A DNA stretch of 64,000 bases from assembly GCF_028368995.1 (NCBI RefSeq), contig NZ_JAQNDL010000004.1, forward strand, positions 544,001 to 608,000, in the 5' to 3' direction. Numbering within the stretch: position 1 is the first letter of the stretch; each line of letters starts with the position of its first letter. Under the pieces are notes generated by a model. The model saw only the letters and a list, made by a program, of their open reading frames with translations. It had not been told where the DNA came from and did no database searches. Shown one piece after another: positions 376-15,113 of this stretch. Origin of the DNA: Nannocystis bainbridge. Lineage in GTDB: Bacteria; Myxococcota_A; Polyangia; Nannocystales; Nannocystaceae. The position numbers and the translations under genes were made by a program.

Positions 376-1518
376 ATGGCGATGCTCGAGCGACTCGATG
401 CGGTGCGTGCGATCTTCAACAACCTCGAGGTCATCGTCTGGGCCGTCGACACCGAGGGCACCATCGTCGTCTCGGAGGGCGGCGGGTTGAAGTACCTCGG
501 CCTGCCGCCCGGCGCGATAGTCGGCCAGAGCTTCTACGAGCTGTACGGGCAGAGCAGCGACGGCGTGAACAACCTGCAGCGCTCGCTCGCCGGCGAGACG
601 CTGATCGTCCAGCACAACGATCACGGCCGGGCCCTCGAGTCGCGCTTCGTGCCGGTCCGCAGCGAGAGTGACGAGGCGGTGGTGGGCGTCATCGGCGTCA
701 CCCAGGACATCACCGAGCGCCTGCGCAGCCAGGCCGAGCTGCGCGAGCAGGCGGAGCTGCTGGACCTGGCCCACGACGCGATCGTGGTCCGCCGGCTCGA
801 CGGCACTGTCACGTACTGGAACCACGGGGCGGCGCAGATCTACGGCCACAGCCGCGAGGAGGCGCTCGGTCGCGACGTGCACGCGCTGCTGCGCACGAGC
901 GGCGATCTGCAGGAGCCGCGGCGCCGGCTGCTGGCAGAGGGCTTCTGGGACGGCGAACAGACGCACACGCGACGCGACGGCCAGGAGGTGCTGGTGGCCT
1001 CGCGCTGGGTGCTGAAGCGCGACGCGAACGGTCAGTCGGCGACGATCCTGCAGATCGACACCGACATCACGGCGCGCAAGCAGGCGGAGCAGGCGGAGGC
1101 CCGCCGGCGCGAGGATCTCATCCGCGCCCAGGCGCTCGCCATCGAGGAGCTCTCGACGCCGCTGATCCCGATCACCGACGACATCTTCGTGATGCCGCTG
1201 ATCGGGATGATGGACTCGATGCGCGCGCAGCAGGTGCTGCAGACCCTGCTCGACGGGCTGGCCAACGGGCGCGGCAGGTTCGTGATCCTCGACATCACGG
1301 GGGTGCCGGTGGTGGATACGGCCGTTGCCCACGCGCTGCTGCGCTCGGCCCAGGCGGCCCGCCTGCTCGGGGCCGAGGTGATCCTGACGGGCATCCGCCC
1401 GGAGGTCGCGCAGACGCTGGTGAGCATCGAGGCCAACTTCACCAACGTGATCACGCGCGGCACGCTGCAGAGCGGCATCGCCTACGCGCTCGGGCGGCGC
1501 GGGCAGAGGACGCTGTGA
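376..1518 (+). CDS. PAS-PAS-STAS protein (RsbR-like sensor / anti-anti-sigma)
   Basis: Two PAS segments (IVWAVDTEG; AIVVRRLDGTVTYWNHGAAQIYG) and an RsbR-type STAS domain (ELSTPLIPI...MPLIG...ILDITGV...LLGAEVILTGIRPEVAQTLV). ATG at 376. Confidence 0.9.
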   Translation: MAMLERLDAVRAIFNNLEVIVWAVDTEGTIVVSEGGGLKYLGLPPGAIVGQSFYELYGQSSDGVNNLQRSLAGETLIVQHNDHGRALESRFVPVRSESDEAVVGVIGVTQDITERLRSQAELREQAELLDLAHDAIVVRRLDGTVTYWNHGAAQIYGHSREEALGRDVHALLRTSGDLQEPRRRLLAEGFWDGEQTHTRRDGQEVLVASRWVLKRDANGQSATILQIDTDITARKQAEQAEARRREDLIRAQALAIEELSTPLIPITDDIFVMPLIGMMDSMRAQQVLQTLLDGLANGRGRFVILDITGVPVVDTAVAHALLRSAQAARLLGAEVILTGIRPEVAQTLVSIEANFTNVITRGTLQSGIAYALGRRGQRTL

Positions 1519-1544
1519 CGCGGGGAGCGGTCGCGTGAGTGGCA

Positions 1545-1668
1545 GGGTCTTCGGGACATGCTTGAAAGGGCATGTCCTCGAGGACGGCGTGGTGAGCGAT
1601 CGCGCCGTGGAAACGTGAAAACAGTCTGGCCCTCAGGACATGCTCCTTCGGGCATGTCCTGAGGAGCA
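1545..1668. repeat. Two triplets of 14-bp TGTC-N6-GACA-like units; includes a perfect hairpin at 1631-1664
   Basis: Units at 1545/1559/1573 and 1627/1641/1655. CCTCAGGACATGC-8nt-GCATGTCCTGAGG is a perfect inverted repeat between convergent genes. Confidence 0.85.
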
Positions 1669-6147: not shown

Positions 6148-7683
6148 TCACTTGCGGCGGCGGCGACGAAGCAGCGGCAGAAGCCAGGCCAGGGCCGGGC
6201 TGCCGGTGCGGCAGCCGCCGCAGGCGTCGTCGCCGGGCGGGTCGGACTCGCCGGCGGTGTCGGACTCGCCCGGATCGTCGCCGGTGCTCGAATCATCACC
6301 GGTGCTGTCGCCGCTGCTCTCGTCGCCGGTGGTCTCGGGCGCGGGCAGTGGTTCGACGCAGGCGAGCCCGTCGCGGGTGTCCGCGGCGCACAGGTGGGCG
6401 CGGATCGACATGTCCGAGAGGACAGGGTTGACGACGGCCAGCCAGTAGCCGCCGGCGGGCAGCTCGGCGAGGATCCGCGGCTCGGGTTCGGCGCCGTCCC
6501 AGGCGAGCGCCTCCGGCTCGACGGGGCCGTCGGCCGCGCCGCCGGCGACCGCCTGAAGCGTGAACTCGAGGCCGGGCGCGGGCGCGGCGAGGCCGAACCA
6601 CAGCGGGCCGCCGGGGTGGTCGAGGCGGTAGTAGCGGGCGGTCAGCGAGAAGAAGCGGTCGTCGTCGGCGAGCGGGAACACCTCCTGTTCGGCGGCCACG
6701 CCCGCGAGCTCGGCGGCGTACGGGTGGCTGTCGCGGGCGCCGGCGTGCTCGCCGGTGGCGAGGTTCCAGGCGGCGAACTCGAGCCAGGCCGGGCGCAGGT
6801 CGTCGGCGTGCGCCTGCAGCAGCCCGGCGATCGCGGCCGGCAGCTCGGCGGCGCCGCCGATCTGCAGCAGGGCGTCGACGAACTCGGGGCCGCGGCGGGC
6901 GATCAGGAAATCCCACCACAGCCCGGTGCCGTAAGCGAAGCTCGGCACCGGACCGGCGGGGGGCTTGAAGAGGGAGCGGCCGGTGTCGGCGAGGTAAGCA
7001 TCGCAGAAGCGCAGGAAATCGCGCGAGTCGGCGCGATAGGACCGCTCGGCCCACACGGCGGTGCCCTCGGAGAACCACACCGGGAGGTCGACGGCGTACG
7101 CGGCCTGGACGGCGTGGAACAGCTCGTGACTGACGACGGTGTCGACGGCCTCCGCGAGGTCGGCGTAGCCGTAGCCGGCGAAATCGTTCTCGAGCACGAG
7201 GTGGCCGGCGCAGGCGTCGGGGTCGCAAGCGTCGTGGCCGAAGTGGCCGTCGGCGGAGCCGCCGAAATCGACGAGGTAGATGTCGAGTGCCTCGCTGCCG
7301 CCGAGCAGGCCGAGGTCGTGCTCGGCCTCGCTGCGCGGGGGCCGGAGGTCAAAGGCGTCGCGGTAGAGCGCGAGCACGGCGGCGGCGGTGTCGGCGACGC
7401 GGACGACGTAGTCGGGCACGCCGTCGCCGTCGAGGTCGGCGAGCGGGACGACGCTGGGGCCGTCGGCGCTGTAGTGGACGCGCAGGCCGCCGCCCGGGTG
7501 ATCGAAAAAGACGAGGCTGTCCTTTGGGTCATACGGCCACAGGCCGCCCTCGGTCGGCCGCTCGGCGCGCGCGAGGCCCGGGACGAGCAGGGCGGCGAGC
7601 AGGGCGGCGAAGCACGCGGGGACCGGCGAGCGAGTGGGACGCGCGCGGCGCTTCGGCTCGACGGCGGAGTGATTTCCACGCAC
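6148..7683 (-). CDS. MXAN_6640-type secreted zinc metalloprotease with MYXO-CTERM-like tail (start uncertain)
   Basis: Signal peptide ...LARA; DLDGDGVPD; VSHELFHAVQ (HExxH) followed by WFSEGTAVW; acidic Ser/Thr linker, GGC, hydrophobic stretch and RRRRRK. Confidence 0.8.
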   Translation of the reverse strand: MRGNHSAVEPKRRARPTRSPVPACFAALLAALLVPGLARAERPTEGGLWPYDPKDSLVFFDHPGGGLRVHYSADGPSVVPLADLDGDGVPDYVVRVADTAAAVLALYRDAFDLRPPRSEAEHDLGLLGGSEALDIYLVDFGGSADGHFGHDACDPDACAGHLVLENDFAGYGYADLAEAVDTVVSHELFHAVQAAYAVDLPVWFSEGTAVWAERSYRADSRDFLRFCDAYLADTGRSLFKPPAGPVPSFAYGTGLWWDFLIARRGPEFVDALLQIGGAAELPAAIAGLLQAHADDLRPAWLEFAAWNLATGEHAGARDSHPYAAELAGVAAEQEVFPLADDDRFFSLTARYYRLDHPGGPLWFGLAAPAPGLEFTLQAVAGGAADGPVEPEALAWDGAEPEPRILAELPAGGYWLAVVNPVLSDMSIRAHLCAADTRDGLACVEPLPAPETTGDESSGDSTGDDSSTGDDPGESDTAGESDPPGDDACGGCRTGSPALAWLLPLLRRRRRK

Positions 7684-7880
7684 CCCGAGCGAGTGGCACG
7701 CGACGAGCGCGGGATGCTCGCGCGTCGACGCGAAGGCGAAGTGATTCCTGCGGCTCGTCGAATCGGCGCATGAGTGCTGCGCGGGCATCGTCGCTTCGAC
7801 GGGCGAGCGATGCCCGCGCATCGTCGCTGCTTCGGCCGATGGATCCGCCGTCGCCTCGCGCTCCGCGGCGTCGCGGCGCT

Positions 7881-8792
7881 TCACGGGAGGAAGCTCCAGC
7901 GCCAGGTCATGATCGCCGAGCCCGTGCCCATGGTGCCGTTCTCGTTGCAGTCGGCCTGGCCCTGTTCGTAGTAGGCCTCGATCACCAGCTTGACGGCGCG
8001 ACCGTCGGCGAGGCGGAGGGCGAACGGGAAGCCGGTGGTGGTGACGCAGCCGGTGTAGCCCCACCAGCTGGCCATGCGGTACGCGGGGCTGCCGGGCAGG
8101 CCGGAGCCGTCCTCTTGCAGGGTGCAGGCGTCGTCGTAGTAGCTCTCGGGCGCGAACTCGGCGTCGGGCGGGGCGGCGTCGAGGTCGGCGTACTGGCCGG
8201 CGGGCGCGGCGACGGTGACGCACGACGGGCCCGAGCTGCCGCTGTTGGCGCGGATGCCGAAGCGCTTGGCGGCGATGTCCCAGGCGCCGCTCTCGAGCGC
8301 CGCGACGTCGTCGAGGTCGACCCGCGCGAGGCCGTCGTCGGTGAAGCGGAGGTAGACCCACGGATTCATCGCCGCGGCCATGGTCCCGCCGGCGGAGGCG
8401 TCGAGGGTCGAGACCCAGTCGTCGCCGTCGCGCACGCTGGCGACCTCGGCGTCGCTGACCTTGTCGTCTTGCAGCGACAGGTCCTGGATCGAGGCGTCGA
8501 TGCAGGGGACGGGGGCCAGCGGGCAGGCGTTCGGGTCGACCGGCTCGTCGGTGGTGCCGGGGTCGGTGGTGGTCGGTGGCTCGGCGGTGGTGCCGGTCTC
8601 GGTCGTGGTGCCGGGTTCGGTGGCGGCCGAGCTCTCGTTGCCGGTCTCGGCAGTGCCGCCGGTCCCGGCATCGTTGCCGGTCGCGGCCTCGGTGCCGGTG
8701 CCGGTGTCGGCCGGATCGCCCTGGTCGCCGCAGGCGCCGACGAGCATGGCGAAGAGGATGAGGTGTAACTTGGGACAGGTCGTGAGGGACAT
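7881..8792 (-). CDS. HmuY-family heme-binding lipoprotein
   Basis: Lipobox LVGAC, Thr-rich stalk, WDIAAKRFGIRANSGSSGP, LRLADGRAVKLVIEAYY; last gene of the heme ABC operon. The frame is open upstream to GTG 8942. Confidence 0.8.
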   Translation of the reverse strand: MSLTTCPKLHLILFAMLVGACGDQGDPADTGTGTEAATGNDAGTGGTAETGNESSAATEPGTTTETGTTAEPPTTTDPGTTDEPVDPNACPLAPVPCIDASIQDLSLQDDKVSDAEVASVRDGDDWVSTLDASAGGTMAAAMNPWVYLRFTDDGLARVDLDDVAALESGAWDIAAKRFGIRANSGSSGPSCVTVAAPAGQYADLDAAPPDAEFAPESYYDDACTLQEDGSGLPGSPAYRMASWWGYTGCVTTTGFPFALRLADGRAVKLVIEAYYEQGQADCNENGTMGTGSAIMTWRWSFLP

Positions 8793-8938
8793 GGGATGCG
8801 CGATCCTGGTGCGAGGTGATCTGAACTTTTGGACAGGTCCCCGGGCCCGACGAGCGGGCGGGCGAGATGAACCTTTGGACAGGTCCCCGGGGACAGGCGC
8901 GTGGGGCGCGTGCCGCGGCAGGACGGCCGCGGCCACGG

Positions 8939-9748
8939 TCACGCGTGGAGGTCGTCGGGCGGGCGCGGGAGGACGGCGAAGCCGCGGCCCGCGGGCGCGG
9001 GTACGAGGTCGAAGCGGGCGCCGAAGCACGCCTCGAGGCGCTCGGGGGTGAGGACGTCGGCCGGTTCACCGTGGGCGACGCAGCGGCCGGCGTGGAGCAG
9101 GGCGAGGTCGTCGGCGCACTGGCTGGCGGCGCCGAGGTCGTGGAGGACGAGCACGAGGGCGGTGTCGGTGGCGCGCACGAACTGGCGCAGGCGCGCGAGG
9201 ATCCGGACGGCGTGGCCGGGGTCGAGGTTGGCGGTCGGCTCGTCGAGCAGGAGGTAGCGGCGCGGGTGCTCGGGGCTGGGCTCCCAGATCTGGGCGAGCA
9301 CCCGGGCCAGCTGGACGCGCTGCTGCTCGCCGCCGGACAGGGTCGGGGCGAGGCGCTCGGCGAGGTGGGCGACCTCGGCCAGCTCGAGCGCGGCCCAGGC
9401 GATGTCGCGGTCGCGCCGGGTCTCGCCGCGGCCGGGGTGCGGGAGGCGCCCCAGGGTAGCGACCTCGAGCGCGGTCAGCGGGAAGCGCAGGGCGCTGGCC
9501 TGCGGCAGGACGGCCCGCATGCGCGCGAGGGAGGTGGGGTGGACCTGGGCGAGCGGGCGACCGTCGAAGCGCAGCTCGCCGGCGCTGGGGGCCTGCTCGC
9601 CGGCCCAGACGCGCAGCAGGGTCGATTTTCCGGCTCCGCTGGGGCCGACGACGGCGAGCACGCGGGCGCACTCGGCCACGAGCGAGAGGTCGCGCAGGAG
9701 CTCGGCGCGCCCGACGGTGACGCCGATGCGCGAGGCGACCAGGCTCAC
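8939..9748 (-). CDS. hmuV: Heme ABC transporter ATP-binding protein
   Basis: GPSGAGKST, LSGGEQQRVQLARVLAQIW, LLLDEPTANLD. Confidence 0.9.
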   Translation of the reverse strand: MSLVASRIGVTVGRAELLRDLSLVAECARVLAVVGPSGAGKSTLLRVWAGEQAPSAGELRFDGRPLAQVHPTSLARMRAVLPQASALRFPLTALEVATLGRLPHPGRGETRRDRDIAWAALELAEVAHLAERLAPTLSGGEQQRVQLARVLAQIWEPSPEHPRRYLLLDEPTANLDPGHAVRILARLRQFVRATDTALVLVLHDLGAASQCADDLALLHAGRCVAHGEPADVLTPERLEACFGARFDLVPAPAGRGFAVLPRPPDDLHA

Positions 9749-10005
9749 GCGACCTCCGATTGGGGGGCGGCGAAGCGAGGGGGATCGACCTCGGCCCCGG
9801 CGCGCCCGGGCGCATGGTCTTCGGGACAGGTCGAGCCGGGCCGCGCGTCGTGCGAGCCCGGGACCGGGGCCGGGCGGGGCGTGCGCATCAGGATGGCCTT
9901 CGGGACAGGTGGGGGCGCGACCGGGGGCGATCGCCTGGGTTCGACCCTTGGTTGCGATCGTTCTTCATAAGTATTCAGAACCAAAGATCTTACGGCGCTG
10001 CTCAT
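9745..10005 (-). CDS. Putative 86-aa bridging ORF between hmuU and hmuV
   Basis: ATG overlaps the hmuU stop (ATGA) and its TGA overlaps the hmuV GTG (GTGA). Low complexity; two motif units. Confidence 0.35.
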   Translation of the reverse strand: MSSAVRSLVLNTYEERSQPRVEPRRSPPVAPPPVPKAILMRTPRPAPVPGSHDARPGSTCPEDHAPGRAGAEVDPPRFAAPQSEVA

Positions 10006-11054
10006 GCGAACTCCGAGGCGCGCACGCGGGCGAGCAGGGCGAGGAACACCGGGGCGCCGAGCAGCGAGGTCAGGATGCCGACGGGCAGCTCGGCGGGGGC
10101 GAGCATGGTGCGGGCGGCGGCGTCGGCGAACAGCAGCAGGGCGGCGCCGCCGAGCGCGGCCGCGGGGATGAGGACGCGATGGCGCGGACCGACGAGCCCG
10201 CGCAGCAGGTGCGGGACGACCAGACCGACGAAGCCGATGATGCCGGTGAAGGCGACGCACACGCCGACGGCCAGGGCGACCTCGGTGATCACGCGCCGGC
10301 GTAGGCGCTCGACGTCGACGCCGAGGTGGAACGCCTCGGCCTCGCCGAGCAAGAGGGCGTCGAGCTCACGCGCGCGGCGCCACAAGAGGACGCCGGACAG
10401 GCCGACGAGGGGCACGAGGATGAGGCCGACGCTGTGGGTGATGCCGCCGAGCCCGCCGAGCAGCCACAGGCTGAGGTCGCGCAGCTGGCGGTCGTCGGCG
10501 AGGTAGCCGAGCAGGCCGATCGCGGCGCTGGCCAGGGCGCTGACGGCGATGCCGGCGAGCAGCAGGCCGACCACCGAGGTCTGGCCGCGGACCCGGGCGA
10601 GGGCGTGCACGATCCACGTGGCAACGAGCCCGCCGAAAAAGGCGAAGACCGGCTGGGTGAGGCCGCCGGGGAGCACGGGCAAGGCGCGGCCGAGCACGAT
10701 GGCGAGGCCGGCCCCGAGCGCGGCGCCGCTGCTGACGCCGACGAGGCTCGGGTCGGCCAGCGGGTTGCGGAACAGGCCCTGCATGGCGCAGCCGGACACC
10801 GCCAGGCCGGCGCCGACGACCATGGCGCCGAGGGTCCGCGGCAGGCGCAGGGCGGTGAGGATGTAGCGCTCGCTCGGCTCGCAGGTCGGGTCGGGCGAGA
10901 CGAGGCAGCCGACCGCGTGCGCGAGGTCGAGCGGGGCGGCGCCGACGGCCAGCTGCAGCAGCGCGCCGAGGACGACGAGGACGGCGAGGCCCACGAGGAC
11001 CGGGCGCACGCGCCGGGCTGTCCCGGCGGACAGGCTCGCCCGGGCGGCGGTCAC
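10002..11054 (-). CDS. hmuU: Heme ABC transporter permease (FecCD family)
   Basis: LRLPRTLG, MQGLFRNPLADPSLVGVSSGA, GEAEAFHLG, IGFVGLVVPH, ELPVGILTSLLGAP. Confidence 0.92.
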   Translation of the reverse strand: MTAARASLSAGTARRVRPVLVGLAVLVVLGALLQLAVGAAPLDLAHAVGCLVSPDPTCEPSERYILTALRLPRTLGAMVVGAGLAVSGCAMQGLFRNPLADPSLVGVSSGAALGAGLAIVLGRALPVLPGGLTQPVFAFFGGLVATWIVHALARVRGQTSVVGLLLAGIAVSALASAAIGLLGYLADDRQLRDLSLWLLGGLGGITHSVGLILVPLVGLSGVLLWRRARELDALLLGEAEAFHLGVDVERLRRRVITEVALAVGVCVAFTGIIGFVGLVVPHLLRGLVGPRHRVLIPAAALGGAALLLFADAAARTMLAPAELPVGILTSLLGAPVFLALLARVRASEFA

Positions 11055-11230
11055 ACGGCCGCTCCTGCGCCTGCGGACATGTGCGAACAGACAGGGACCG
11101 CCGAGGACCTGCGCGAAGAGACAGGTGACCGGGACCTGCGCGAAGCGACAGGTGCTCGGCTGAGGCCGGGCCGGGCGCCGGAGCTGCGCGGAGCGACAGG
11201 CGCGCCGTCGCGGAGGCGGCACCGCGTCAC
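11051..11230 (-). CDS. Putative 59-aa bridging ORF between hmuT and hmuU
   Basis: GTGA overlap at both ends; motif units at 11066, 11080, 11110 and 11137. Confidence 0.35.
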   Translation of the reverse strand: MTRCRLRDGAPVAPRSSGARPGLSRAPVASRRSRSPVSSRRSSAVPVCSHMSAGAGAAV

Positions 11231-12129
11231 GGCGCCGCTCCTTCGCCGAGCTCGGGGTGGAGGGCGACCAGCAGCTCGCGCACGCCCTGGCCGATCCGCG
11301 GGCCGAAGCCGAGCAGCTTGAGGTCGTCGATGGCGACGATCCGCTGGTCGCGGCCGGCGGGCGTCTCGGCCAGGCCGGGGAGGGCGAGCAGGCCCGGGAC
11401 GCCGCCCATGCTCTCGAGGCCGCGGCTCGGCAGGACGACCACGTCGGGCGCGGCGGCGACCACCGCCTCGGCGCTCCACGGCTTCATGCCGGTGAGGGCG
11501 CCGCCCGCGTTCTCGCCAGCGGCGAGGCGCACCAGCTCGGCGCCGGCGGTCTCGCGCCCGGCCACCAGCAGGCGGCCCGGCCCGCGCGCGTAGACGAACA
11601 GGACCCGCGGCCGCGAGGTGACGCGAGCGCGCATGCGGTCGGCCTCGGCCAGGTCGGCCTCGAGCGTGGCGAGCACCGTGGCCGCCGCTTCGGGCCGGCC
11701 GAGCGCGGCGGCGATGGCCGTGATGTTGCCGCGCGCGGCGTCGAGGTTCTCGCCCGACGGCAGCAGCTCGAGGCGGATGCCGGCGCTGCGCAGCTGCTCG
11801 ACCGCGGTGGCCGGACCGGACGCGTCGCTGGCGAGCACCAGGTCCGGCCGGAGCCCGAGCACGCCCTCGGCGGAGAACTGCCGGTAGTAGCCGACCCGCG
11901 GGAGGGCAGCGGCGGTCTCGGGATAGAGGCTCGAGAGGTCGACGCCGACGACGCGATCCCCGGCCCCAAGCGCAAATACCGCTTCGGTGACCGAGCTGCC
12001 GAGGGTGACGATGCGCTGGGGAGCCGTGACCTCGGCCGTCGCGGGGGCTGGACCGTCGCCCGGGGCGGCGCAGGCCGGGAGCAGCACCGCAGCGAGGACG
12101 AGCGAGCGAAGGACGGTCGAGGCGAGCAT
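11227..12129 (-). CDS. hmuT: Heme ABC transporter substrate-binding lipoprotein
   Basis: Lipobox LPAC; RIVTLGSSVTEAVFALG; VGYYRQFSAEG (heme-ligand Tyr motif); LLGFGPR. Confidence 0.9.
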   Translation of the reverse strand: MLASTVLRSLVLAAVLLPACAAPGDGPAPATAEVTAPQRIVTLGSSVTEAVFALGAGDRVVGVDLSSLYPETAAALPRVGYYRQFSAEGVLGLRPDLVLASDASGPATAVEQLRSAGIRLELLPSGENLDAARGNITAIAAALGRPEAAATVLATLEADLAEADRMRARVTSRPRVLFVYARGPGRLLVAGRETAGAELVRLAAGENAGGALTGMKPWSAEAVVAAAPDVVVLPSRGLESMGGVPGLLALPGLAETPAGRDQRIVAIDDLKLLGFGPRIGQGVRELLVALHPELGEGAAP

Positions 12130-12187
12130 GCAGATCCAGACCGATGACACCGCGAGGCGCGCGGGCCAGAGTGGTGGCTACCACATT

Positions 12188-12204
12188 TTGAAAATGCAAA
12201 TCAA
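12188..12204. promoter_or_regulatory. Fur-like box (hmu-proximal)
   Basis: TTGAAAATGCAAATCAA, 13/17 match to the deltaproteobacterial Fur consensus WTGAAAATNATTTTCAW, in an AT-rich island. Confidence 0.6.
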
Positions 12205-12259
12205 AGCTAATTTCGTGAGCGAACCGCGCAACTGGGGTGTCACGGCCCTGGAGTTTGGC

Positions 12260-12290
12260 TTGACACGAGATTTTGAAAACTGTTATCAAT
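12260..12290 (+). promoter_or_regulatory. Sigma70-like promoter of the rpsD paralog, overlapped by a Fur-like box at 12273-12289
   Basis: TTGACA at 12260; TG-n-TATCAA at 12281-12289; box TTGAAAACTGTTATCAA (14/17 match). Confidence 0.65.
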
Positions 12291-12315
12291 CCACCCCCTC
12301 GCTCGGAAGCGCACC

Positions 12316-12933
12316 ATGAGTCGTTACACCGGACCCCGTCTCCGCATCCTCCGCCGCCTCGACGTCGACCTCCCGGGTCTGACCGCCAAGTCGCGCGAGA
12401 AGCGGCCCTATCCACCCGGACAGCACGGGCAGGCGCGGCGCAAGCGGCCGTCCGCCTACGGCATGCAGCTCGCCGAGAAGCAGAAGCTCTGCTTCAACTA
12501 CGGCGTCAGCGAGCGGCAGATGCGGCGCCTGTTCGCCGAGGCGATCGCGGCCAAGGGCGTCACCGGTGAAGTGCTGCTCGAGCTGCTCGAGCGCCGCCTC
12601 GACAACGTCGTGTTCCGCTCCGGCCTCGCGCCGACGATCCCCGCGGCGCGGCAGCTCGTGACCCACGGGCACGTCCGCGTCGACGGCCATCGCGTCGACA
12701 TCGCCTCGTTCCGCGTGCGCACCGGCGCCGAGATCACGCTGCGCCCGCGCAGCGTCGACCTCGACATCGTCCAAAAGGCCGTGGGCACGCCGGTCCGCAT
12801 CCCGCTGCCGACGTGGCTCGAGACCGATCTGCCGCAGCGTCGGGTGAAGATGGTCGGCAAGCCGAGCGGCAACTCGGCTCCGTTCGAGCTCGATGTCCAG
12901 CTGGTGGTCGAGTACTACGCCCGCTTCTTCTAG
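12316..12933 (+). CDS. rpsD: 30S ribosomal protein S4, paralog lacking the N-terminal Cys motif
   Basis: MSRYTGPR...PPGQHG...YGMQLAEKQK...LERRLDNVVFR...ARQLVTHGH...VVEYY; stand-alone, not in the alpha operon. Confidence 0.96.
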   Translation: MSRYTGPRLRILRRLDVDLPGLTAKSREKRPYPPGQHGQARRKRPSAYGMQLAEKQKLCFNYGVSERQMRRLFAEAIAAKGVTGEVLLELLERRLDNVVFRSGLAPTIPAARQLVTHGHVRVDGHRVDIASFRVRTGAEITLRPRSVDLDIVQKAVGTPVRIPLPTWLETDLPQRRVKMVGKPSGNSAPFELDVQLVVEYYARFF

Positions 12934-12940
12934 GAGTGCC

Positions 12941-13345
12941 ATGCCGCGCCCCTCGACCCCCGACAATTCGTTGATGGCGCTGATCGTGCGCCGCTGCGGT
13001 CTCGACGCGGTGGCAGCCGAGCTGCTGCAGCGAATCGAGGCCGCCGCGTGGGACCTCGTCGCCGACGGCGTGACGCCGGACGTGCTGCGCGCGGTGCTCG
13101 CGGTGGTCGCCGACGTGGCACCGGCTCCGGCGGGCCTGCCGTTCCGCGCGCGCCGGCTGCTGCGGAAGTTCGCCCGCGCCCGCGACGCCGGCGTGCCGCC
13201 CGACGTGGTCTCCAGCTTCACCGAGGACGCGCTGCGCATGGCGCTGCTGATCGACGACGCGTTCCACCGCGGCCACGCGCTCGGCCGCGCCGAGGCGACG
13301 ACGCCGATCGAAGACGCGCCGCCGCCCGGGACCTGGCCGCACTGA
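12941..13345 (+). CDS. Hypothetical protein
   Basis: AGGAG RBS overlapping the rpsD stop; GC3-biased ORF. Confidence 0.65.
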   Translation: MPRPSTPDNSLMALIVRRCGLDAVAAELLQRIEAAAWDLVADGVTPDVLRAVLAVVADVAPAPAGLPFRARRLLRKFARARDAGVPPDVVSSFTEDALRMALLIDDAFHRGHALGRAEATTPIEDAPPPGTWPH

Positions 13346-13359
13346 GGCGCAAGCGCACC

Positions 13360-13524
13360 GGATGTCTGAAGGGACATGGCCGCGAGGTCATGTCCCTTTT
13401 GCGTGCATGGTTCACCGAGCCCGAGTCGGATGTCTGAAGGGACATGGCCGCGAGGTCATGTCCCTTCGTGCATGTGCTTCGCATTGGATGTCCGAAGAGA
13501 CATGGCCGCGAGGTCATGTCCCTT
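13360..13524. repeat. Three copies of a 39-bp palindromic element built from 14-bp units
   Basis: GGATGTCYGAAGRGACATGGCCGCGAGGTCATGTCCCTT at 13360, 13428 and 13486; spacers of 29 and 19 bp. Confidence 0.9.
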
Positions 13525-13541
13525 CGTGCGCCCGGCTCGGG

Positions 13542-15113
13542 TCAGAGCGCCTGCGCGGCGATCCAGCGGAACACGCCGGGCCCGGTGCCGCGCATCAGCT
13601 CGGGGTCGGGCTCGAGCGCGTCGATGCGCGCCAGCTCGCCGGTCACCGAGAGCACGTACAGGTTGCGCGGGGCCGACGGCGGCAGCAGCAGCTCGACGCT
13701 GAAGCCCTGGTCGTCGCGGCTGTGGAGCAGCAGGTCGCCGTCGTCGTCGATCGCCAGCGCCCACATCGGCACGCCCTGGAACCGCTCCATGCCCGCCGAC
13801 GACACGCGGACGATCTCCCCCGCCGTCACCCCGCCGACGTCCTGCGTGTCGCTGGCGCACGTCCAGGCGACGAAGCGGGCGTTCGGCGAGGCCACCGGCG
13901 GCTGGCCGCCGACGCATGGGCTCTGCTCCGCGCTCAGCAGCTCGAGCCGGTCGGCGTCGACGCGCAGCGCGGCCCCGCGGACCGTCACGAACAGCAGCGC
14001 GCGGCCGTCGGCGCTGACGCGGGTGAACAGCTCGCCGGTGTCGCCGATCAGCGGCCGGCCGTCGTGCTCGCCGGTCGTGTGGTCGTAGCGGCGGATCGCC
14101 AGGCCGTCACGGAACACGTAGTGGCGGGGCGAGACGGCGGCGACCAGGCGCGAAGGGTCGGCCCACGCGGGGGCGTCGCCCGGGACCGCGCAGGCGACCC
14201 CGGGCTCGTCGACGGCCCAGCGCCACACGCGGCAGAGGCCGTCGGCGCCGCCCAGGCTCAGCGCGCCGCCGTCGGGGTCGACCACGCCGAGGCCGCAGCT
14301 CGGGCCCGGGCCGGCGCAGCGGGCCCGCTGCAGCCGCGCGAGCGGGGCGTCGGGCAGGCGGGCCGCGCCCAGCTCGGTCAACGCGGGCGCGGCGTCGTAG
14401 CCCTCGGCTGGCCTCGGGTACCTGATTGCAAGGACATGTCCTTTGGGACCTGGCCGTAAGAACCCGTCCTCGGGGACACCTTGCACGGCGAACAGCACCG
14501 GGGCGTCGGCGGCGCCCACGACCCCCCAGACCTCGGCGCAGCCGGCCGGCAGCGGCCACGCGAGCGGCACGATCGCGGCCGGATCGCCGGCGCTGGTGGT
14601 GGCGACCCGGGGCGACAGCGGCACCAGCTGCAGCGCGGCCGGGCAGCCGGCGGTCCACCACAGCGCGCCGCCGGCGGGGGCGAAGCCGGTGGCGTCAGGG
14701 GCCAGGCGGGCGGGCAGGGCGAGCGGCAGGGTGCGCGCGCCGACGAGGTCGACGAAGCCGGCGCGCAGCGTGCCGAAGCTGTCCCCGAGTTCATGTTGCC
14801 AGCCGCCGTCGCCGGCGCGGATAAGGGCGCCCTGACCGCGCGGATCGAGCTCGACCACGAGGGGCTGCGCGTCGGCCTCGGGGCCCGGTTCGGCGGGCAA
14901 GAGCTCGCGGAAGGCGAGGTCGCCGGCGTCGTAGATCGTCAGGGTCCGGGCCCCCTCCTTGCCGCGCTGCGACGCGATCCACACCGCGCGCGCGTCGACC
15001 GTGGGCGGGCCGCACGCGACGAGGCCAACGACGGTCAGGACGGTCAGGATCGCCGCGCCCGCGCGAGCGCGAAGGCCCGCGGGCGGGCGCGGGGGCGTCG
15101 CTTGTGACTTCAC
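13542..15113 (-). CDS. Hypothetical lipoprotein (possibly beta-propeller-like)
   Basis: Lipobox GLVAC; 3' part of the long ORF has coding-like bias; start uncertain. Confidence 0.7.
   Translation of the reverse strand: MKSQATPPRPPAGLRARAGAAILTVLTVVGLVACGPPTVDARAVWIASQRGKEGARTLTIYDAGDLAFRELLPAEPGPEADAQPLVVELDPRGQGALIRAGDGGWQHELGDSFGTLRAGFVDLVGARTLPLALPARLAPDATGFAPAGGALWWTAGCPAALQLVPLSPRVATTSAGDPAAIVPLAWPLPAGCAEVWGVVGAADAPVLFAVQGVPEDGFLRPGPKGHVLAIRYPRPAEGYDAAPALTELGAARLPDAPLARLQRARCAGPGPSCGLGVVDPDGGALSLGGADGLCRVWRWAVDEPGVACAVPGDAPAWADPSRLVAAVSPRHYVFRDGLAIRRYDHTTGEHDGRPLIGDTGELFTRVSADGRALLFVTVRGAALRVDADRLELLSAEQSPCVGGQPPVASPNARFVAWTCASDTQDVGGVTAGEIVRVSSAGMERFQGVPMWALAIDDDGDLLLHSRDDQGFSVELLLPPSAPRNLYVLSVTGELARIDALEPDPELMRGTGPGVFRWIAAQAL

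What the first reader, a model, noticed from the sequence alone, without database searches (positions are those of the whole stretch)
12180..12933. Cys-less ribosomal S4 paralog divergent from the heme-uptake operon under Fur-like boxes: possible iron-responsive ribosome remodelling
Seen: a stand-alone rpsD begins MSRYTGPRLRILRR with no CxxC. It shares a ~190-bp AT-rich spacer with hmuTUV/hmuY that holds two 17-bp Fur-like palindromes, one covering the predicted -10 of rpsD. Known: Cys-less r-protein paralogs are normally Zur/zinc controlled, and Cys-containing S4 has been modelled with a 4Fe-4S cluster in Thermus thermophilus ribosome structures. Inference: this copy may replace an Fe-S-bearing S4 under iron starvation.
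Basis: partly seen in the sequence, partly recalled or inferred. Interest (0 to 1): 0.7.

Follow-up and report, generated by a model that had tools for sequence, protein, structure and literature searches.

The report
Iron-regulated spare ribosomal protein S4
A soil myxobacterium keeps a second, cysteine-free copy of ribosomal protein S4 beside its haem-uptake genes, behind an operator of the type bound by the iron repressor Fur, which suggests that its ribosomes are rebuilt when iron runs short.

Summary
Window 12316-12933(+) encodes a full-length bacterial uS4 (205 aa) with no Cys in its N-terminal part. It lies divergent from a Peripla_BP_2/FecCD/ABC/HmuY haem-type importer. The same Nannocystis genome has a 4-Cys uS4 (CxxC...CxxxxC) inside rpsM-rpsK-rpsD-rpoA-rplQ.

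The spacer holds two Fur-type 7-1-7 boxes (0.03 expected in the window). Box 2 overlaps the putative rpsD2 promoter. It ranks 7th in the 11-Mb genome under a matrix built from 13 other sites, some beside bfd-bfr, a TonB receptor and imelysin.

- In Myxococcota with both S4 forms, 18 of 18 loci (10 genera; 5 loci fetched afterwards as a test) have such a box within 3.2 kb upstream of the Cys-less copy, often inside haem or iron-uptake clusters.
- Where the Cys-less form is the only S4, 1 of 11 loci does.
- No ZnuA was found; the two cobW hits are weak (24-30 bits), and the other seven Cys+/Cys- r-protein families are single-copy.

Best reading: a Fur-repressed alternative uS4 made under iron starvation. 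That it replaces an Fe-S-bearing S4 is inference. C+/C- S4 pairs were already catalogued in 2009; the iron link was not found in print.

The parts
12316..12933 (+). rpsD2: Cys-less (C-) uS4 paralog, 205 aa
   Evidence: It matches PF00163 and PF01479 and passes the NCBIfam S4 equivalogs. It is 47% identical to the canonical copy. dN/dS within the genus is 0.04-0.24.
12272..12290 (.). Box 2: Fur-type operator TTTGAAAACTGTTATCAAT over the spacer and -10 of the putative rpsD2 promoter
   Evidence: It has 2 mismatches to TGAWAATNATTWTCA. It ranks 7th genome-wide at 30.5 bits, the best site not used for training. It is conserved at -41/-42 in all 6 Nannocystis genomes.
12260..12289 (+). Putative rpsD2 promoter: -35 TTGACA (12260-12265), 18 nt, -10 TATCAA (12284-12289)
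   Evidence: Read directly. The same layout stands at a second locus, G000:C2:249110-249145. The strict scan does not list it.
12184..12205 (.). Box 1: weaker Fur-type site holding the perfect palindrome CATTTTGAAAATG, on the hmuT side of the spacer
   Evidence: It has 3 mismatches and ranks 16th by the matrix at 27.9 bits. It is conserved in all 6 Nannocystis genomes while the DNA between the boxes varies.
11227..12150 (-). hmuT-like periplasmic binding protein (a start at the ATG at 12129 is more likely, giving a lipoprotein signal)
   Evidence: It matches PF01497 at 99.7 bits. Relatives 42-49% identical sit in clusters that include HemS.
10002..11222 (-). hmuU-like FecCD permease
   Evidence: It matches PF01032 at 295 bits.
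8939..9748 (-). hmuV-like ABC ATPase
   Evidence: It matches PF00005 at 82 bits.
7881..9029 (-). HmuY-like lipoprotein (the ORF as listed; the true start is probably later)
   Evidence: It matches PF14064 at 31.1 bits against a cut-off of 27. It stays with S4b in G020, L079, G157, G199 and G200.
6148..7800 (-). HExxH-motif protein that travels with hmuY
   Evidence: It has no Pfam family. It is co-conserved next to hmuY in the genus and in G020, L079 and G200.
12941..13345 (+). orf134: small helical protein 8 nt after rpsD2, probably co-transcribed
   Evidence: It is 84-91% identical in 5 of 5 Nannocystis relatives, though split into two aligned pieces in G007. It matches no Pfam or NCBIfam family, and the Atlas gives only weak fold hits.
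13360..13529 (.). Three copies of a 44-nt REP-like palindromic element closing the rpsD2-orf134 unit
   Evidence: Found by the repeat search.

Best explanation
rpsD2 encodes a working, Cys-less form of ribosomal protein uS4. It is kept silent by the iron-loaded Fur repressor and switched on, together with the divergent haem importer, when iron is scarce.

Fur would bind box 2, which lies over the spacer and -10 of the rpsD2 promoter. It would also bind box 1, about 85 bp upstream on the hmuT side. When iron falls, the repressor leaves the DNA. The haem importer and the alternative S4 are then made, and new 30S subunits are built around the metal-free S4 instead of the 4-Cys S4 encoded in the alpha operon.

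**Shown here**
- The two gene copies and the Cys difference between them.
- That the boxes belong to the motif family found at classical iron genes.
- That boxes accompany the Cys-less copy only in genomes that hold both copies.
- That the same type of Cys-less S4 serves as the only S4 in related genomes.

**Inferred**
- That Fur is the binding protein and iron the signal.
- That the 4-Cys S4 holds an Fe-S cluster, as reported for Thermus.
- That the swap therefore spares iron, or rescues 30S assembly when clusters cannot be made.
For: **1. Two copies.**
- The C- copy is 205 aa and lies in the window. The C+ copy is 209 aa with C9, C12, C26 and C31, and lies within rpsM-rpsK-rpsD-rpoA-rplQ.
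- The C+ copy aligns without gaps to T. thermophilus S4, and all four Cys are conserved.

**2. The motif.**
- The window has 2 matches against 0.03 expected.
- Genome-wide there are 18 sites with up to 2 mismatches.
- Genes beside these sites include a TonB-dependent receptor (perfect box), bfd plus bacterioferritin, imelysin and an ECF sigma factor.
- Under a matrix built from 13 sites outside this locus, box 2 ranks 7th and box 1 ranks 16th in 11 Mb.

**3. A regulator is present.** The genome encodes a bona fide Fur: 104 bits to the Fur structure 4RAZ.

**4. Footprint.** Both boxes are conserved in 6 of 6 Nannocystis genomes, while the spacer between them diverges.

**5. Copy number against box.**
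- In two-copy genomes, 13 of 13 loci have a box (up to 3 mismatches) within 3.2 kb upstream of the C- copy.
- A further 5 of 5 two-copy genomes, found afterwards as a test, also have one.
- In genomes where the C- form is the sole S4, 1 of 11 loci has one.

**6. Neighbours of the C- copy in two-copy genomes (and two of unknown copy number).**
- G157: TonB receptor-hmuY-small protein-S4b, divergent from hmuTUV-hemS.
- L079 (copy number unknown): hmuY-HExxH-hmuTUV-hemS-S4b.
- G020 (copy number unknown): box-S4b-hmuY-HExxH.
- G024: Prx-PepSY_TM-S4b.
- G199: TonB receptor, hmuTUV-hemS and hmuY, each with boxes.

**7. The protein works as an S4.**
- dN/dS is 0.04-0.24.
- The same C- clade supplies the only S4 in G012, G036 and G039, whose alpha operons run rpsK-rpoA with no rpsD between.

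**8. Not a zinc system.**
- No ZnuA was found, and cobW gives only weak hits.
- L31, L33, S14, L36, L28, S18 and L32 are each single-copy.

**9. Literature.**
- Fe4S4 in T. thermophilus uS4 is in print (passages of PMC10450194).
- A Zur-motif search near S4 paralogs found nothing (passages of PMC3087516).
Against: - **No expression or binding data.** The public runs gave nothing decisive.
- **The promoter is weak.** The -10 (TATCAA) is poor, and the strict promoter scan finds nothing.
- **The motif cannot name the regulator.** A 7-1-7 motif does not separate Fur from other Fur-family proteins. The genome also has a second, divergent Fur-family gene of unassigned type.
- **A redox signal is possible.** A 1-Cys peroxiredoxin lies directly upstream of S4b on the same strand in G011 and G200, and two genes upstream in G024. 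In G199 it stands elsewhere in the locus.
- **One counter-example.** L079 has S4b beside hmu and hemS but no box.
- **Some boxes are far off.** In G011, G024, G157 and G200 the nearest box is 1.6-3.1 kb upstream, so control there rests on an assumed operon.
- **The metal is unknown.** The metal of the 4-Cys S4 in these organisms has not been measured. It has long been called a zinc site (PMC3087516), and Fe4S4 is reported for Thermus only.
- **The pair is not needed for life.** Many Myxococcota live with only C+ or only C-.
- **The control set is partial.** Only 8 of the 29 single-copy C- genomes were examined, and they were not chosen at random.
Confidence: 0.6

Rival explanations
1. The control responds to peroxide or redox stress rather than to iron. 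A PerR-like Fur-family repressor would bind the boxes. The Cys-less S4 would replace a 4-Cys S4 whose metal-thiolate site is damaged by oxidants.
For: - A 1-Cys peroxiredoxin lies directly upstream of S4b on the same strand in G011 and G200, and upstream with PepSY_TM between in G024.
- The second Fur-family protein of the genome has PerR as its top NCBIfam hit, at 45 bits against a cut-off of 180.
- PerR and Fur boxes look alike (recalled).
Against: - The same motif marks bfd-bfr, TonB receptors, hmuTUV-hemS, imelysin and PepSY_TM, which are classical iron-regulon genes.
- No catalase or ahpCF locus turned up among the sites with up to 2 mismatches that were annotated.
- The PerR assignment of the second regulator is far below cut-off, and its PDB hits are mixed.
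Confidence: 0.15
2. This is the classical zinc-sparing switch. The boxes are Zur boxes, and the Cys-less S4 replaces a zinc-ribbon S4 when zinc is scarce, as for L31, L33, L36 and S14 in other bacteria.
For: - C- paralogs of Cys4 r-proteins are Zur-controlled in B. subtilis, M. tuberculosis and S. coelicolor (passage of PMC3087516).
- The S4 Cys4 site has long been called a zinc site.
- A second Fur-family gene of unknown specificity exists.
Against: - No ZnuA was found, and cobW gives only weak matches.
- None of the seven classical families is duplicated.
- The genes that share the boxes or operons with S4b are for haem and iron uptake, not zinc.
- Chen et al. found no Zur sites near S4 paralogs.
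Confidence: 0.07
3. The boxes serve only the neighbouring uptake genes. rpsD2 is a constitutive or otherwise regulated second S4 that merely sits in an iron-uptake island, for example because it was transferred along with it.
For: - S4b is patchy within genera: 1 of 5 genomes in g4 and 1 of 9 in g14. This fits an accessory gene that moves with its neighbours.
- In four genomes the nearest box is 1.6-3.1 kb away.
- The -10 is weak.
Against: - In Nannocystis, G020, G080, G199, G203, G207 and G216 the box lies 29-61 bp before the S4b start codon.
- In G116 a C- S4 of separate origin (a long branch outside the main C- clade) also has a box, at -192.
- The contrast of 18 of 18 against 1 of 11 by copy number is not expected from neighbourhood alone.
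Confidence: 0.1

Closest known systems
Zur-controlled Cys-less paralogs of L31, L33, L36, S14, S18, L28 and L32 (B. subtilis, M. tuberculosis, S. coelicolor)
   Same: A Cys-less duplicate of a Cys4 ribosomal protein lies outside the main r-protein operons. A Fur-family palindrome sits over its promoter, and the Cys-bearing copy remains in the core operon.
   Different: - The protein here is uS4, a primary 30S assembly protein.
- The boxes and neighbours belong to an iron and haem regulon, not a zinc one.
- No zinc-uptake marker was found, and none of the seven classical families is duplicated in this genome.
C+/C-(IV) S4 pairs catalogued by Chen, Roberts and Luthey-Schulten 2009 (PMC3087516): Sorangium So ce56, Myxococcus xanthus, Bdellovibrio, Nitrosomonas europaea
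   Same: It is the same kind of pair, with C+ in the alpha operon and C-(IV) elsewhere. The C- copy keeps the PGxHG motif and is 6 residues shorter before it.
   Different: - That paper searched Zur motifs near S4 paralogs and found none. The word 'iron' occurs 0 times in its text.
- Here a regulator motif and a functional neighbourhood are assigned.
- Here the C- type is also shown to be the sole S4 in related genomes whose alpha operon has lost rpsD.
- Its supplementary genome list could not be read.
Fur-controlled iron-sparing replacements such as flavodoxin for ferredoxin or Mn-SOD for Fe-SOD (recalled; no call)
   Same: The logic is the same: a metal-free or other-metal isoform, repressed by Fur, is made when iron is short.
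   Different: The replaced protein would be a structural ribosomal protein. That the replaced copy holds iron is not shown here.
Clostridial C-(V) S4 paralogs
   Same: They are a second, Cys-less S4 outside the alpha operon that is not expressed in normal growth (passage of PMC3087516).
   Different: They are up-regulated in sporulation and lack the PGxHG motif. They are a different subtype with a different trigger.

Membership tests
Bacterial ribosomal protein uS4 (rpsD) | An N-terminal S4/S9 domain plus an S4 RNA-binding domain, scoring above the curated equivalog cut-off | tested here: met
   PF00163 at 94.3 bits and PF01479 at 69 bits. TIGR01017 at 230.8 bits against 177.2, and NF003717 at 240.2 against 116.
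Bacterial ribosomal protein uS4 (rpsD) | The gene is maintained by purifying selection and can act as a cell's S4 | tested here: met
   dN/dS is 0.04-0.24 over 15 pairs. The same C- clade supplies the only S4 in G012, G036 and G039, where rpsK is followed directly by rpoA.
Bacterial ribosomal protein uS4 (rpsD) | Incorporation into 30S subunits | not testable with these tools
   This needs mass spectrometry of purified ribosomes.
C-(IV) subtype of S4 (Chen et al. 2009) | No Cys4 motif, no N-terminal insert of about seven residues, PGxHG motif retained | tested here: met
   There are 0 Cys in the first 45 residues. PPGQHG is at 33-38, against 39-44 in the C+ copy. The definition comes from passages of PMC3087516.
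Fur regulon | A Fur-type 7-1-7 / 19-bp box overlapping the promoter | tested here: met
   Box 2 has 2 mismatches and ranks 7th genome-wide under a matrix built from other sites. It covers the spacer and 5 of 6 bases of the putative -10.
Fur regulon | The same motif stands at classical iron genes of the same genome, and a Fur orthologue is present | tested here: met
   A TonB receptor, bfd-bfr and imelysin carry the motif. Fur is present, at 104 bits to 4RAZ.
Fur regulon | Fur binding to the box, and derepression when iron is low | not testable with these tools
   No RNA data for this organism under iron limitation were found.
Zur-regulated alternative ribosomal proteins | Co-regulation with zinc uptake (znuABC, COG0523) and with other C- paralogs | tested here: not met
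   ZnuA gives 0 matches. cobW gives only 30 and 24 bits, in large unrelated frames. L31, L33, S14, L36, L28, S18 and L32 each give one match.
Zur-regulated alternative ribosomal proteins | A Zur-specific box | tested here: inconclusive
   The motif alone cannot tell Fur-family members apart. The second Fur-family protein is unassigned.
Hmu-type haem uptake locus | A binding protein, FecCD permease, ATPase and HmuY; a haem-degrading HemS in orthologous clusters | tested here: met
   HemS/ChuX follows hmuTUV in L079 by Pfam, and HemS-like genes 39-42% identical to it follow hmuTUV in G157 and G199. No HemS or TonB receptor was seen next to the operon in the window itself.

The most novel reading that the evidence does not exclude
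The Cys4 site of bacterial uS4 is a physiological iron-sulfur site, which would make the ribosome a sizeable iron sink. Myxococcota that keep both S4 forms would then run a Fur-controlled, iron-sparing rebuilding of the 30S subunit. This would be the first iron-responsive alternative ribosomal protein. It would also explain why no Zur sites were ever found at S4 paralogs.
Probability: 0.4. Interest if true: 0.85.

Novelty: new variant of a known kind. Interest (0 to 1): 0.72.

Why it matters
So far, alternative ribosomal proteins that respond to a metal are a zinc (Zur) story.

**Why a Fur-controlled S4 would be new**
- It would extend ribosome remodelling to iron.
- It would give genetic, in-vivo-type support to the structural report of an Fe4S4 cluster in uS4.
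- It would answer a question left open in 2009: what regulates the Cys-less S4 paralogs.

**Why it is testable**
- Cultured strains such as Nannocystis exedens DSM 71 carry the same locus.
- The comparison is sharp: Fur-type boxes at 18 of 18 two-copy loci against 1 of 11 single-copy loci.

Tried and rejected
- **Rfam.** A search of 11500-13800 at E up to 1 gave 0 matches, so there is no known riboswitch or S4 leader.
- **Promoter scan.** The strict scan found 0 promoters. It also found one terminator-like hairpin inside the spacer that is no more than chance.
- **Sequencing runs.**
  - 20 runs were listed, and none holds half of the words.
  - Four runs were laid, all as contigs.
  - Soil contigs of a relative about 88-90% alike span hmuT-spacer-rpsD2-orf134.
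  - RNA-library contigs of low depth cover 12883-13345.
  - Contigs cannot show transcription, so there is no verdict.
- **Earlier findings of this scan.** Nothing was found by place, by words or by sequence.
- **orf134 and the small CxC proteins.** Neither matches a Pfam or NCBIfam family. The Atlas gave only weak fold hits for orf134 and unnamed Myxococcota clusters for the small protein.
- **A first 18-letter spacing pattern for the boxes.** It was one base too long and found only near-misses.
- **The site C2:329234 near the single L28 gene.** It lies in the signal-peptide codons of a CxxCH lipoprotein and not before rpmB.
- **Literature.** Six searches found no paper that links an S4 paralog to iron or Fur:
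  - rpsD + Fur box + iron: 0 papers.
  - Ribosomal protein S4 + iron limitation + Fur regulon: 0 papers.
  - Alternative ribosomal protein + iron starvation + Fur: 9 papers, 8 listed; by title and abstract start they concern zinc, general metal homeostasis or a zinc-potentiated drug. Only PMC11672702 was opened, and it has no uS4 or rpsD.
  - uS4 + paralog + iron: 12 papers, none on bacteria with S4 paralogs.
  - rpsD2: 6 papers, irrelevant.
  - Myxococcus xanthus + Fur + iron starvation + ribosomal protein: 1 paper, irrelevant.
Full report
**What is in the window.**
The ORF at 12316-12933(+) encodes a 205-aa protein that starts MSRYTGPRLRILRR.
- It has the Ribosomal_S4 N-terminal domain and the S4 RNA-binding domain.
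- It scores above the curated NCBIfam cut-offs for bacterial S4: TIGR01017 at 230.8 bits against 177.2.
- It has no Cys in its first 45 residues.

On the other strand lie four genes: a Peripla_BP_2 binding protein, a FecCD permease, an ABC ATPase and an HmuY-family lipoprotein (31 bits against a cut-off of 27). An HExxH protein without a family follows them.

Eight bases after rpsD2 starts orf134 (12941-13345). It is conserved in the genus but has no known family. Three REP-like 44-nt palindromes follow it.

No Rfam family matches the region.

**The second copy.**
The window is part of an 11.05-Mb genome of 71-72% G+C. Record titles of near-identical loci place it in Nannocystis.

The genome has a second S4 at C2:2103657-2104283. 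It is 47% identical and 209 aa long. It reads [31 protein letters not shown] and sits between rpsK and rpoA. Its best match among solved structures is Thermus thermophilus S4. The alignment runs end to end without gaps, and all four Cys are conserved.

**The boxes.**
The spacer is 165 bp, or 186 bp from the more likely ATG of hmuT. Its G+C is 55%.
- With TGAWAATNATTWTCA and up to 3 mismatches, the 64-kb window has exactly two matches, at 12189 and 12274. Shuffles give 0.03.
- Box 2 lies over the spacer and 5 of 6 bases of a putative -10 (TTGACA, 18 nt, TATCAA).
- The strict promoter scan does not list this promoter.
- Genome-wide there is 1 perfect site, 8 sites with up to 1 mismatch and 18 with up to 2.

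Genes next to those sites:
- a TonB-dependent receptor, with the perfect box
- bfd plus bacterioferritin
- imelysin
- an ECF sigma factor
- DUF3570
- several proteins without a family

A matrix built from 13 sites outside this locus ranks box 2 7th (30.5 bits, the best site not used for training). It ranks box 1 16th in the whole genome.

The genome encodes a clear Fur: 104 bits to the Fur structure 4RAZ. It also encodes a second, divergent Fur-family protein whose type cannot be assigned.

**Conservation in the genus.**
Of the 10 other genomes of the genus, 5 hold the paralog at 90-94% identity. The other five are smaller assemblies (4.5-9.1 Mb).
- In all 5 the order hmuY-hmuV-hmuU-hmuT <> rpsD2-orf134 is kept.
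- Both boxes are kept, while the DNA between them varies.
- dN/dS of rpsD2 is 0.04-0.24 over 15 pairs. Its dS is typically two- to three-fold that of the canonical gene (ratio 1.2-24 over the 15 pairs), as expected for a functional gene expressed at a lower level.

**Beyond the genus: the key comparison.**
C- S4 proteins 49-63% identical to rpsD2 occur widely in Myxococcota.

In a maximum-likelihood tree the C+ proteins form one clade (support 100/99). The C- proteins of two-copy and one-copy genomes are interleaved.

In G012, G036 and G039 the alpha operon runs rpsM-rpsK-rpoA-rplQ with no rpsD, and the C- gene elsewhere is the only S4 found. This type of protein can therefore carry the whole S4 function.

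I then grouped loci by copy number and counted boxes (up to 3 mismatches) within 3.2 kb upstream of the C- gene.
- **Two-copy genomes:** 13 of 13 loci have a box. These are six Nannocystis, G011, G024, G018, G108, G157, G080 and G116. The four from other families were checked to have a 4-Cys copy in the alpha operon.
- **One-copy genomes:** 1 of 11 loci has a box, a 3-mismatch site at -2097 in a genome of 56% G+C.
- **Limits of the one-copy set:** it comprises G012, G036 and G039 plus 8 of the 29 single-copy C- genomes. Those 8 were taken mostly from the top of the list, not at random.

As a test made after the pattern was seen, a wider search of the family found five more genomes with the C- gene. 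All five proved to be two-copy. All five have a box, at -29, -1593, -37, -61 and -52. In total that is 18 of 18 loci in 10 genera.

Kin are not independent, so this is a count and not a probability.

Three loci of unknown copy number were set aside:
- G020 has a 1-mismatch box at -34.
- L079 has none.
- L078 has none, with only 649 nt of upstream sequence available.

**Neighbourhoods.**
The C- gene keeps turning up among haem and iron-uptake genes, in different gene orders.
- **G157:** box, TonB receptor, HmuY, small CxC protein, S4b, divergent from hmuTUV-hemS.
- **L079:** hmuY-HExxH-hmuTUV-hemS-S4b.
- **G020:** PepSY_TM <> box-S4b-hmuY-HExxH.
- **G024:** Prx-PepSY_TM-S4b.
- **G011:** box-CxC protein-DUF3501-Prx-S4b, next to hmuTUV, a TonB receptor and imelysin. 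G200 has the same box-to-S4b gene string, next to hmuTUV, hmuY and the HExxH protein.
- **G199:** a TonB receptor, S4b with its own box, hmuTUV-hemS and hmuY, each preceded by boxes.
- **G203:** PepSY_TM <> boxes-S4b.

None of the 11 single-copy loci showed hmu or hemS neighbours. One had a weak ABC ATPase hit.

**Not a zinc system.**
- ZnuA gives no match.
- cobW gives only two weak matches, of 30 and 24 bits.
- L31, L33, S14, L36, L28, S18 and L32 each give one match.
- A tblastn check finds no second S14 or L31.
- The genome is 90.5% complete by marker genes, so absence is 'not found'.

S4 is thus the only one of the eight Cys+/Cys- families that is duplicated here.

**Literature.**
- **Chen, Roberts and Luthey-Schulten 2009 (PMC3087516).** I read the abstract, outline, passages and section 13.
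  - They already list C+/C-(IV) S4 pairs in Sorangium, Myxococcus, Bdellovibrio and Nitrosomonas.
  - They searched for Zur sites near S4 paralogs and found none.
  - The word 'iron' does not occur in the text.
  - Their supplementary genome tables could not be read and may list more pairs.
[quoted passage not shown] It defines the C+ pattern as CXXC-CXXXXC, which the canonical copy here has.
- **Searches.** Six searches found no paper linking an S4 paralog to Fur or iron.

**How it most likely works.**
- **Shown:**
  - a functional Cys-less S4 gene
  - a promoter-proximal box of the family that marks iron genes
  - boxes that go with the two-copy state and not the one-copy state
- **Inferred from established Fur biology:** iron-loaded Fur represses, and iron starvation derepresses rpsD2 together with haem uptake.
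- **Inferred from the Thermus report:** the 4-Cys S4 carries an Fe-S cluster, so the swap saves iron or keeps 30S assembly going when clusters cannot be built.

The main rival is a peroxide or redox signal. A 1-Cys peroxiredoxin lies upstream of S4b on the same strand in three genomes, and Fe-S or Zn-thiolate sites are sensitive to oxidants. Zinc control and mere neighbourhood are less likely, for the reasons above.

No expression or binding data could be had.

**Verdict.**
The pair of S4 forms is known. The Fur-type control and the haem and iron neighbourhood, correlated with copy number across Myxococcota, were not found in print. This makes the case a new variant of the alternative-ribosomal-protein theme.

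Noticed in passing
L167 4761-5057(-), L069 3582-3848(+), L063 7940-8176(-), L186 8940-9152(-); G000:C1:2356693-2356941 (L007): A family of small proteins (78-98 aa) shares the motif C-x-C-G-x-x-H-L-x-x-G-x-x-T/S and has no Pfam family. It sits directly behind Fur-type boxes. In G157 and G018 it lies immediately upstream of the Cys-less S4. In G011 and G200 it opens the string CxC-DUF3501-Prx-S4b. In the window's genome it stands alone behind its own box. The Atlas shows only unnamed Myxococcota clusters.
   Followed up: partly
G000:C2:249047-250883: A second locus repeats the regulatory layout of the rpsD2 promoter: a box 1-like site, about 80 bp, then TTGACc, 18 nt and TATCAA with a box 2-like site. 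It lies upstream of a 584-aa RCC1-repeat lipoprotein and has no divergent gene. The two-box module is therefore not simply one box per divergent promoter.
   Followed up: partly
window 13360-13529: Three direct copies of a 44-nt element stand right after orf134. Each forms a GGGACATGGCC/GGTCATGTCCC hairpin. Related GACATGTCC-type sequences turned up all over the genome in the motif scans, so this looks like a REP-like repeat family.
   Followed up: partly
G000:C1:4523313-4523675(-), C1:4524963-4525325(+), C2:3022155-3022517(+): The Fur gene is found three times with an identical score (112.1 bits). Two copies are inverted and 1.3 kb apart near the end of contig C1, and one is near the end of C2. 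This may be an assembly duplication at contig ends, or a real inverted repeat.
   Followed up: no
G000:C3:1278496-1279183 (L072 1363-2053): The only S14 (101 aa, long form) and the only L31 (119 aa, Cys-less, with an Ala/Pro/Lys-rich tail) form a stand-alone pair after a pseudouridine-synthase-like gene. They are outside the spc operon and have no AT-rich box upstream.
   Followed up: partly
genera g4 and g14 of the family: The Cys-less S4 is patchy within genera: 1 of 5 genomes in g4, 1 of 9 in g14 and 5 of 9 in Nannocystis, where the genomes without it are small MAGs. It behaves like an accessory gene that comes and goes with iron-uptake islands.
   Followed up: partly
L169 (G116) 956-1546(-): G116 has a very divergent Cys-less S4 that lacks the PGQHG motif and sits on a long branch outside the main C- clade. 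It also has a Fur-type box, about 190 bp upstream, followed by a long leader. This may be an independent origin of the same arrangement.
   Followed up: partly
window 12941-13345: orf134 follows rpsD2 by 8 nt. It is conserved only within Nannocystis (84-91% identity, split by an indel in G007). It is predicted to be helical (Atlas model pLDDT 0.69) and has no family.
   Followed up: partly
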